64,000 bases of DNA from Lingula anatina (taxonomy: Eukaryota; Animalia; Brachiopoda): the NCBI GenBank assembly GCA_051362555.1, contig CM120644.1, positions 12,608,567-12,672,566 of the forward strand, in the 5' to 3' direction. This document shows, in pieces, positions 54,701 through 57,700 of this stretch (position 1 is its first letter; every line of letters starts with the position of its first letter). Below the pieces are notes generated by a model. The model was not told where the DNA came from. It worked only from the letters and a program-made list of their open reading frames with translations, and searched no databases. A program made the translations under genes and the position numbers.

Positions 54701-57700
54701 CACAACTTTGAACTGTGACTCTAAATTTTTCTCTCTTTCTTTCAGTTTGGTTTCTCTTGCAGCTAATTCTCTTTCCTTGGCGCTTAGCTCGCGTTCTGCT
54801 CTCTTCAGTCTGTCCAATGTGGCCTCGATCTCCTTCCTCCAGTCCTGTTTGTGTTCCAGGAATGAATTTGTCATGTCAGACACACTTTCTATAAGTAAAG
54901 GTAAAAATAAGTAACATAAACTAGAAAAGTAGAAAACACACACTAAAGACAGAGACTTCCACAAGGGAAGTATTTAGTTTTATAAATAGTCTGACATAAC
55001 GACTTGGATCAACTTTAAAACCAATACTCAGTTCAGATTTGTCCACCTGAAGATGGTCTTGGGATCACATTGGGTCACATTTCTCAAAATTTAAGATCCA
55101 GCATGAAAATCAATTTCGATTCTATCTTTTTCTTAGTTCAAAACAATTGGATGAATCAAAAGCTTTATTTTGATAAAAAAAAATAGTTTTTTTATAAACT
55201 TAGGAACACATGGACCGAGTAATCTTACCCCAAGGAAATGGTAATGTAAAACATTTTTTTGTGAGAAAACAAACGGTCTCCAGCACTCCTTACCATCATG
55301 TACTATAGTGTCCAGAGTGGTCAATATCTGTCTAAATGATGATCTGTCCTTGGGCGCCTCCAGCCAACATTGCTGCATCAACTGTGCAAAACACGTTGGA
55401 CAGGTGCTTGGAATGGTCAGCCTCTGGAACAAGTTATAGCACACATGTCAAGTCTAGTTATTGTTGGTATCAGAAGTCTGCCATGTTAGCCACTGGTCCT
55501 ACACCTACAGACGGTAAATTTTTGTTTGGACAGAATGTGTGGATTGATTGGTCGTACATGGCCATTTGATTTTTTCTATGGGTTTTTAAAGAGATTTCAG
55601 TTAAATTATTATTATTTTTTTTAATGGAACTGTTACATGAGATTCTAAAAAAGAAAACAAAATTCATTTATGTTTTGTTGGATAATGGGCATATATGATG
55701 ACCTCTCTCCACCACCAACCAGGCCAACTGGAACCCCTCAATACCCTCAACCTACCTCTCCTCTCTCCACCACCAGCCAGGCCACCTGGAACCCCTCAAT
55801 ACCCTCAACCTACCTCTCCTCTCTCCACCACCAGCCAGGCCACCTGGAACCCCTCAATACCCTCAACCTACCTCTCCTCTCTCCACCACCAGCCAGGCCA
55901 CCTAGAACCCCTCAATACCCTCAACCTACCTCTCCTCTCTCCACCACCAGCCAGGCCACCTGGAACCCCTCAATACCCCTAACCTACCTCTCCTCTCTCC
56001 ACCACCAGCCAGGCCACCTGGAACCGCTCAAAACCCCTAACCTACCTCTCCTCTCTCCACCACAAGCCAGGCCACCTGGAAACCCTCAATACCCTCAACC
56101 TACCTCTCCTCTCTCCACCACCAGCCAGGCCACCTGGAACCCCTCAATACCTTTAAAGGGGACCTCGTGAGTTAATAACTCCCACAAAACCACCCCATAG
56201 GACCACGTGTCACAGGTCTCGGACACAGGTAAACTCTGGATCACCTACAATTGTAGTATATTACAGCTTCTTTGGTAATAAATATACACTGATGAAGTCC
56301 CTATTTAAAGCTGCGCAACTTGTTAGAATTAAGCAGTATTGATTTTTGAAAACTTTTTTTTAAATCAACAGCTAATACTGAAAATGTTATTTTCATAAGA
56401 ATATTTCAATGTCACATGGATGACCTCATTCTGAGGAAATTGCTCAATATACACATTATTATTACTATTAGAATATTGGATGTAAACAATTACTATACCA
56501 GTTGTTGATTGAAGAATTTTACTTTTAAACTTGAAAAAGTGAAATATAAGAATAAGTGGGACACTTGAAAAATAGAAAAAAAAATCTGTATTCCATGCTT
56601 ACCTCAGGGGCCATCCATGGGAAGGTACCTGCCAGAGACATTTTAGTGGTACTGCCCATTATTCTGCTAGCACCAAAGTCACAAATCTGAAATAGATAAA
56701 AACATCAGTCTGCATATAAAAACATCAATATGGTGTGATATATAAGTATTTGAAGATATTCACTAGCCTTACTCTTATTAGGAATACTAAATATTATTCT
56801 CAGACTACTGATTGGAATATATTTTCAAGCTTAACGTTTTGTTACTTATTGGATATAAATATTGCTCTTAGACTATCAAAGAACTCATAAATAAACAAAT
56901 AAATGGACAGAAAGAAAATATCTTACCTTACACACCCAGTCTGCAGATATCACAACTGCAATAATCAATGTTTTAATTTTTTTATATAAGTCTCTTCATA
57001 AAGAAGTCTTAGATTAAGAGTCTGGGCAAGCACCAACATACTGGTAAGTTTCTTTAGTAAAAAGTGTAAAAATATTTTACTACAACTTCAGAAAATACCT
57101 TGCATTCAAATATCAAAACCTCAATTATTTACCACTGACTTGAACTAGCACGCTTAAGAAAAAAAAGAGATAAGACATCATAAAAGTGCTGTTTTTCCTT
57201 GCAAAAGCAATGCAAACCCTACCATTTTTTGACTTGAGATCTCTGTGAATGACTCTGACTGGGGCCTCTGTGTGTAAATAGTTCATGCCTGGAATGACAG
57301 AAAATATGTTAGGTGTGACTAGATTCTGTTAGGTGTGACATTATTGTGTGACATCATTGTTTTGGTGTGACAGCATTATGTTCATATGACATGTATTTAT
57401 TGTAACATAATGTGCACTATGTACTGTATTAGGCGTAACATACCACCAAGGCAAACTGAATGATACACATTTCAGCTCATATTGTCAATTCTAATCAGTA
57501 AACAATTGGCATTATGACAACAAATGCAACAGGTCACGTATGTTGTGCCGTAAGTTAGTACCTAAGAGATGTGCATTGATCAACACTTTCTTGACCCTAT
57601 GCAGTATTTCCTGTCTCAAACAGAAACCTACCCAGGGCAACATCATTAGCCCATTCCAGGATTTGTGTGAAATCCAGCACATTCTCCGGCTGCTGGAGGA

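What the first reader, a model, noticed from the sequence alone, without database searches (positions are those of the whole stretch)
55702..56151. ZAK kinase exon end and its splice donor are tandemly amplified: one productive donor and six stop-guarded copies
Seen: the 58-bp unit is the last 48 nt of coding exon 7 ([16 protein letters not shown]) plus the first 10 intron nt (GTAGGTTGAG), giving 7 near-identical GAG|GTAGGT donors 58 nt apart. Reading past the first donor gives GTA GGT TGA (stop at 56095-56097), so use of any downstream donor truncates the kinase. Inference: this VNTR built from a splice junction may act as a copy-number-dependent rheostat between productive and NMD-targeted ZAK mRNA. 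Alternatively, it shows how the spliceosome picks the exon-proximal site among identical donors. I do not know of a named element class that covers this.
Basis: partly seen in the sequence, partly recalled or inferred. Interest (0 to 1): 0.78.

Follow-up and report, generated by a model that had tools for sequence, protein, structure and literature searches.

The report
Splice-donor "mirage" minisatellite in ZAK intron
The end of one exon of an invertebrate ZAK kinase gene, with its splice signal, is repeated six more times into the next intron, but the RNA reads that can be placed join at the first signal, so this is likely a harmless repeat of a kind already described in lancelet and human genes, not a dosage switch.

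Summary
The array is real: 55702-56151, period 58, 7.8 copies. Each unit is 48 exon bases plus 10 intron bases, giving seven identical GAG|GTAGGT donors after ZAK coding exon 7. The rheostat reading is not supported. In 4 of 9 same-species RNA runs, 37 of 130 laid reads run from the exon end into exon 8, with no listed read end at the unit border. The 'stop guard' is automatic: none of 65,536 possible intron tails opens any downstream donor. The class is known and named: 'mirages' in amphioxus (PMC3087553) and human F7, CBS, 6-16, LMNB2, PDGF (PMC1557585), where the first donor dominates. The same gene carries a mirror array on the exon 11 acceptor; 127 of 207 laid reads join exon 10 to the last copy. 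Both arrays resolve to the exon-proximal site. Limits: the RNA animals differ from the assembly and may lack the arrays; NMD was not blocked; 1-2 reads in one run are unexplained. The scan noted this arrangement before, on other DNA of this genome and in other genomes.

The parts
55702..56151 (-). 58-bp junction-spanning minisatellite, 7 full units plus a 44-nt partial unit
56104..56244 (-). ZAK/MAP3K20 coding exon 7 (141 nt); its last 48 nt are the exon part of unit 1
   Evidence: covered by RNA reads
56098..56106 (-). donor 1 (GAG|GTAGGT), the productive 5' splice site
   Evidence: 37 reads leave the stretch at 56104 into exon 8 letters; depth does not step at the unit border
56095..56097 (-). 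TGA stop in the exon frame, third codon past donor 1 (codon 221)
55750..56048 (-). six spare donors, G of GT at 56045, 55987, 55929, 55871, 55813, 55755; no use listed in RNA
55702..55745 (-). truncated eighth unit, two substitutions in 44 nt, no GTAGGT donor
55294..55423 (-). ZAK coding exon 8; acceptor at 55423
   Evidence: loose-end consensus equals the exon start; exon end from frame and GT
56603..56686 (-). ZAK coding exon 6
   Evidence: joint to exon 7 in 20 (X1) and 15 (X2) reads
53747..54003 (-). second, mirror-image array: 56-bp unit (21 intron nt + 35 exon nt) on the exon 11 acceptor, 4.6 copies; spare acceptors before 53949, 53893, 53837, each followed by TAA where the exon has GAA
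53614..53781 (-). ZAK coding exon 11 (SAM domain); its acceptor is the last copy of the second array and is the one used
   Evidence: Pfam SAM_2 E 1.4e-12; 127 reads join exon 10 letters at 53782
54267..54311 (-). ZAK coding exon 10
   Evidence: loose-end consensus; frame

Best explanation
A 58-base piece spanning the end of ZAK exon 7 and its splice donor is tandemly repeated into intron 7; the spliceosome joins exon 8 to the first donor in the reads seen, and the other copies are likely removed with the intron as a neutral 'mirage' minisatellite. Shown: the array, the seven donors, the stop, the exon 7-exon 8 junction in RNA. Inferred: origin by local duplication, then growth and homogenisation by slippage or unequal crossing-over; choice of the first donor by exon definition or 5'-to-3' first-come recognition; survival of the array because the first exon end and donor stay intact, while rare downstream products would carry a stop at codon 221 and likely be removed by NMD.
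For: RNA: 15, 15 and 7 reads in X1, X2 and X7 leave at 56104 into exon 8; no loose end at 56151 and no go-back joint is listed; depth inside the unit (25.7, 42.7) is not above depth outside it (27.9, 44.9). Mirror test: at the acceptor array 31, 74, 18 and 4 reads join exon 10 to the last copy, depth is 0 on intron bases 53789-53802 in all four runs, and the stop-making variant of the spare copies is not listed. Neutral decay: copies carry silent, missense and nonsense changes; that no change hits the 9-nt donor has chance 0.26-0.36. The far-end copy is the most damaged in both arrays, like the boundary exclusion described for amphioxus mirages (PMC3087553 passages). Precedent: only the first donor is used in F7, LMNB2 and PDGF (PMC1557585); mirages do not disturb splicing of Adh3, globins, troponin C.
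Against: The RNA animals are not the assembled one (4 fixed differences in exon 7, 2 in exon 6) and may lack the array, in which case the reads say nothing about competition. NMD would hide downstream products. The tool lists only events with 3 or more reads, so up to 2 reads per run can be missed. In X7 the first bin holds at least 18 base-coverages more than three reads ending at 56104 can give: one or two of its 11 reads were laid into the first intron bases, either real read-through or extension into the look-alike start of exon 8 (6 of 8 letters). In human CBS and 6-16 two pseudo-sites are used (PMC1557585).
Confidence: 0.8

Rival explanations
1. Leaky array: donors 2-3 are used at a low rate, the products are destroyed by NMD, and ZAK output per allele falls slightly as copies are added. 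A side effect, not a control device.
For: All six spare donors are intact and identical from -3 to +6. Nearest pseudo-sites are used in CBS and 6-16 (PMC1557585 introduction). A reference title links the CBS 31-bp VNTR to reduced activity (listing only) and a review passage links F7 repeat number to factor VII level. 1-2 unexplained reads in X7.
Against: No downstream product listed in four runs; none at the mirror array.
Confidence: 0.12
2. Selected, regulated rheostat: copy number or a stress signal shifts splicing to the stop-guarded donors to tune ZAK level.
For: Latent donors behind in-frame stops are activated by heat shock in human cells (PMC3510495 abstract).
Against: The stop guard needs no selection: 0 of 65,536 intron tails open a downstream donor, and only 425 of 20,000 shuffled units are stop-free over three copies. 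No significant donor conservation. An unrelated AT-rich array of the same design sits on another junction of the gene, which points to a general mutational habit.
Confidence: 0.03
3. The spare donors are silent because of stop-codon-dependent 'suppression of splicing', not position.
For: Every spare donor and spare acceptor lies behind or before an in-frame stop; the model is published for human latent donors (abstract of PMC3510495; listing).
Against: In F7, pseudo-sites that keep the frame open are also unused (PMC1557585 discussion).
Confidence: 0.03
4. Assembly artefact: the array does not exist, or has far fewer copies, in the animal.
For: Four of seven units are identical; no DNA run was listed to check against.
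Against: Units carry their own substitutions with 0% indels, units 2 and 3 share a two-base change, and the acceptor array alternates two unit types, patterns expected of real repeat turnover.
Confidence: 0.02

Closest known systems
Amphioxus 'mirage' minisatellites: Adh3, globins BflGb6 and BflGb9, troponin C, PGBD5 (PMC3087553 passages; PMC3902484 passage)
   Same: [quoted passage not shown]
   Different: Another invertebrate lineage (earlier scan notes call the genome Lingula; not tested here). Length instability between haplotypes is shown for mirages and untested here.
Human F7 IVS7 37-bp VNTR (Borensztajn et al. 2006, PMC1557585; abstract, synopsis, introduction and discussion read)
   Same: First monomer spans the exon-intron boundary; 5-9 identical donors; only the most upstream is used.
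   Different: F7 unit holds 4 exon and 33 intron bases; this one 48 exon and 10 intron bases. Function of the pseudo-sites was shown by mutation in F7, not here.
Human CBS IVS13 31-bp VNTR, interferon-inducible 6-16, LMNB2, PDGF intron 4 (as summarised in the introduction of PMC1557585)
   Same: Same architecture, 10-25 reiterated donors.
   Different: CBS and 6-16 use two pseudo-sites besides the authentic one; no such use is listed here.
Human CBS 844ins68 (PMC2630376 passage)
   Same: Duplicated intron/exon junction in which the distal site is used and the upstream exon copy is removed, as at the exon 11 acceptor array here.
   Different: One extra copy, not an array.
Latent 5' splice sites / suppression of splicing (PMC3510495 abstract)
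   Same: Intronic donors behind an in-frame stop that are normally unused.
   Different: Those are scattered chance sites, not tandem copies of the authentic donor.

Membership tests
Junction-spanning ('mirage' / F7-type) minisatellite | Head-to-tail repeats of minisatellite unit size | tested here: met
   58 bp x 7.8, 95% matches
Junction-spanning ('mirage' / F7-type) minisatellite | One end unit spans an authentic exon-intron boundary | tested here: met
   unit 1 = 48 exon + 10 intron nt; junction confirmed by RNA
Junction-spanning ('mirage' / F7-type) minisatellite | Splice signal reiterated inside the intron | tested here: met
   six further GAG|GTAGGT
Junction-spanning ('mirage' / F7-type) minisatellite | mRNA is spliced normally at the authentic site | tested here: inconclusive
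   normal junction in 37 of 130 laid reads and no other listed, but the RNA animals are not shown to carry the array
Junction-spanning ('mirage' / F7-type) minisatellite | Copy number varies between haplotypes (VNTR) | not testable with these tools
   no whole genome held; no DNA run listed
Regulated unproductive splicing (AS-NMD switch) | Stop-bearing isoform is made at measurable level and rises on NMD block | tested here: inconclusive
   none listed at steady state; no NMD-block data
Regulated unproductive splicing (AS-NMD switch) | Alternative site and stop are kept by selection | tested here: not met
   stop is forced by unit length and copied exon; donor intactness not significant, p 0.26-0.36; weak test with 6-8 changes
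ZAK / MAP3K20 kinase | Kinase domain closest to ZAK, followed by a SAM domain | tested here: met
   PDB 5x5o/5hes/9rpv E about 1e-22 versus 1e-10 for MLK and DLK; SAM_2 in exon 11

The most novel reading that the evidence does not exclude
One invertebrate gene with short introns (240-680 nt) carries mirror-image arrays of identical donors and of identical acceptors, and both resolve to the exon-proximal copy: a natural paired test of exon definition outside vertebrates. In its boldest form, the spare sites leak into NMD in proportion to copy number, so that these arrays act as allele-specific dosage variants of ZAK, and of many other genes in this genome.
Probability: 0.12. Interest if true: 0.5.

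Novelty: new member of a known kind. Interest (0 to 1): 0.16.

Why it matters
As it stands it is one more mirage and matters little. The pair of arrays is a tidy illustration that the exon-proximal site wins on both sides of an exon: first of seven donors, last of four acceptors. If copy number did change ZAK output through NMD, mirages would be a common hidden source of expression variation in genomes rich in them.

Tried and rejected
No whole genome is held, so no genome-wide enrichment scan. X4 gave 2 reads, both on exon 6, and is uninformative. Reads were laid on stretches that hold one unit of each array, so reads inside an array could show only as loose ends, go-back joints or variant letters. 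The 53764 change in RNA matches the spare acceptor copies but is rejected as a sign of their use: it travels with 53772 at allele-like frequency (15 of 41, 26 of 80, 10 of 25 reads) and without the stop-making change. Idea that donor 1 was itself made by the duplication (the intron 10-mer resembles the unit's exon start; the eighth unit ends in a weak GT): not testable without a relative's intron; two of 11 donors in the gene are GTAGGT, so it is an ordinary donor. G-quadruplex drive: the unit is 52% G, G4Hunter 0.95, top 1% of window positions, but the second array is 36% GC, so not a general cause. One search used exon ends off by one base and its stop positions and simulation were discarded; one search replaces it. 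Searches with nothing useful: VNTR + UPF3A + splice, 0 papers (the lead was recalled); Lingula + minisatellite + intron + tandem repeat, 1 irrelevant paper; passages of PMC10078293 did not treat junction-spanning units; no earlier scan note near this place.

Full report
Observation. The array is as described: 55702-56151, period 58, 7.8 copies, 95% matches, no indels. On the minus strand the unit is the last 48 nt of a 141-nt exon (56244-56104) plus 10 intron nt. Seven full units each carry GAG|GTAGGT; the eighth stops after 44 nt without that donor. Units 1, 4, 6 and 7 are identical, unit 5 has one change (a nonsense change), units 2 and 3 have four each and share a two-base change in the intron tail. 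Such unit-specific substitutions fit a real array better than an assembly echo, though copy number could not be checked: no genome is held and no DNA run was listed.

The gene. The exon matches human ZAK/MAP3K20 178-224 at E 1.4e-22, twelve orders better than MLK or DLK kinases. Eleven GT-AG-bounded exons from 58779 to 53614 join into 395 codons without a stop, so 'coding exon 7' is right; introns are 240-680 nt. Exon 11 holds most of a SAM domain. Exon 7 covers positions 169-206 of the 263-position kinase profile, so a stop at codon 221 would remove the end of the kinase domain and everything after it.

Which donor is used. I laid 4 of the 9 offered RNA runs on 56093-56812, which holds exon 6, exon 7 and one unit (49, 68, 2 and 11 reads laid). 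In X1, X2 and X7, 15, 15 and 7 reads leave the stretch at 56104 with letters that are the start of exon 8 (acceptor 55423). A read spliced from a later donor and reaching more than 48 nt upstream would break off at 56151 or go back; no such loose end or joint is listed (threshold: 3 reads at 2 starts). Depth inside the unit (25.7 and 42.7) is no higher than in the unique part of the exon (27.9 and 44.9). In X2 the 39 partly laid or overrunning reads equal the 37 listed loose ends plus two antisense intronic reads; X1 leaves 2 and X7 leaves 4 unlisted. Against my reading: in X7 the first bin has 57 base-coverages from three plus-direction reads, at least 18 more than exon bases allow, so one or two reads were laid into the first intron bases. 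This may be unspliced RNA, DNA, a downstream donor, or extension into the start of exon 8, which resembles the intron start at 6 of 8 letters. Two larger limits: the RNA animals differ from the assembly at 4 sites in exon 7 and 2 in exon 6 and may lack the array, and NMD was not blocked.

The stop guard is automatic. All six later donors meet TGA at codon 221. But 58 is not a multiple of three: donors 2, 3, 5 and 6 shift the frame (stops at codon 31 or 3 of exon 8), and donors 4 and 7 must read the copied exon in all three frames, one of which has its own stop. With GT kept, none of 65,536 possible intron tails leaves any later donor open; only 425 of 20,000 shuffled units are stop-free across three copies. 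The early TGA itself would arise in 6,000 of 65,536 tails. That all donors are intact is also unremarkable: 6-8 changes miss a 9-nt site with chance 0.36-0.26.

A mirror array in the same gene. 53747-54003 (period 56, 4.6 copies) copies 21 intron nt and the first 35 nt of exon 11, giving three spare acceptors upstream of the real one, each followed by TAA where the exon has GAA. On 53593-53802 (one unit; runs X1, X2, X3, X8; 51, 96, 52 and 8 reads laid) 31, 74, 18 and 4 reads join exon 10 to the last acceptor, depth on intron bases 53789-53802 is zero in all four runs, and the stop-making letter is not listed. So 2 of 21 exon edges mapped in this gene carry an array, and in both the exon-proximal site is the one seen. 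The spare acceptor copies have CAA where this exon has CAG, and CAA is an allele in the RNA animals; if the exon changed after the array arose, CAG alleles in X1-X3 would carry the array, but unequal crossing-over between alleles explains it equally well, so this does not settle carriage.

Mechanism. Shown: anatomy and the junctions used. Inferred: a local duplication across the junction, then growth and homogenisation by slippage or unequal crossing-over, with the far-end copy decaying in both arrays. The first exon end and donor are untouched, so the array is tolerated; recognition across the exon, or first-come recognition during transcription, picks donor 1; stray products would carry a stop far upstream of later junctions and likely be removed by NMD (rule recalled, not tested in this animal). 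First donor and last acceptor together fit exon definition better than a plain 5'-to-3' scan, if the RNA animals carry the arrays.

What is known. Borensztajn et al. 2006 (PMC1557585; abstract, synopsis, introduction, discussion read) describe minisatellites whose first monomer spans an exon-intron boundary in F7, CBS, 6-16, LMNB2 and PDGF; in F7 the pseudo-sites are functional but only the most upstream is used, even where a pseudo-site would keep the frame. In amphioxus such repeats are named 'mirages', occur on both donor and acceptor sides, vary in length and do not disturb splicing (passages of PMC3087553 and PMC3902484). A dosage effect also has precedent, seen only as a reference title for CBS and a review passage for F7. 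Stop-preceded latent donors are described as common (abstract of PMC3510495). I found no paper on such repeats in Lingula in one search. Earlier scan notes, unchecked, report 44 similar findings in at least 24 genomes and many such arrays elsewhere in this genome; one gave the lead to the 'mirage' paper, which I then read in passages.

Verdict. Real, correctly described, and a new member of a known, named kind. Neutral mirage 0.8; low NMD-masked leak 0.12; regulated rheostat 0.03. Interest 0.16.

Noticed in passing
window 53747-54003 (-): Second junction-spanning array in the same gene, on the exon 11 acceptor; unit types alternate, suggesting a 112-bp dimer duplication; RNA uses the last acceptor.
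   Followed up: yes
window 56093-56103, run X7: One or two reads laid past donor 1 into the first intron bases; cause unresolved.
   Followed up: partly
window 56101-56094 versus 55423-55416 and 56150-56143 (-): The intron start resembles both the start of exon 8 (6 of 8 letters) and the exon start of the repeat unit; may be chance or a trace of an older duplication.
   Followed up: partly
window 53614-53781 and 56104-56244: High allelic diversity in ZAK exons: 13 variable sites listed in 168 nt of exon 11 and 4 fixed differences in exon 7 among RNA animals.
   Followed up: no
window 49701-49785 (-): 21-bp coding tandem repeat inside the 469-codon open frame 48709-50118, the likely last ZAK exon.
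   Followed up: no
window 33399-34547 (-): 382-codon open frame with a DDE_Tnp_4 (Harbinger-type, family name recalled) transposase-like domain, E 2.9e-29.
   Followed up: no
window 10219-10542 (-): Exon of a DnaJ-domain gene (E 4.1e-15); a 20-bp array at 10083-10185 lies about 125 nt into the following intron and does not span the junction.
   Followed up: partly
window 15669-16659 and 37803-38429: Two arrays of a 161-bp unit with similar letters in opposite orientation, likely one satellite or mobile-element family.
   Followed up: no
window 63374-63718 (+): Weak PHD-finger match, E 5.9e-4, below the curated cut-off.
   Followed up: no
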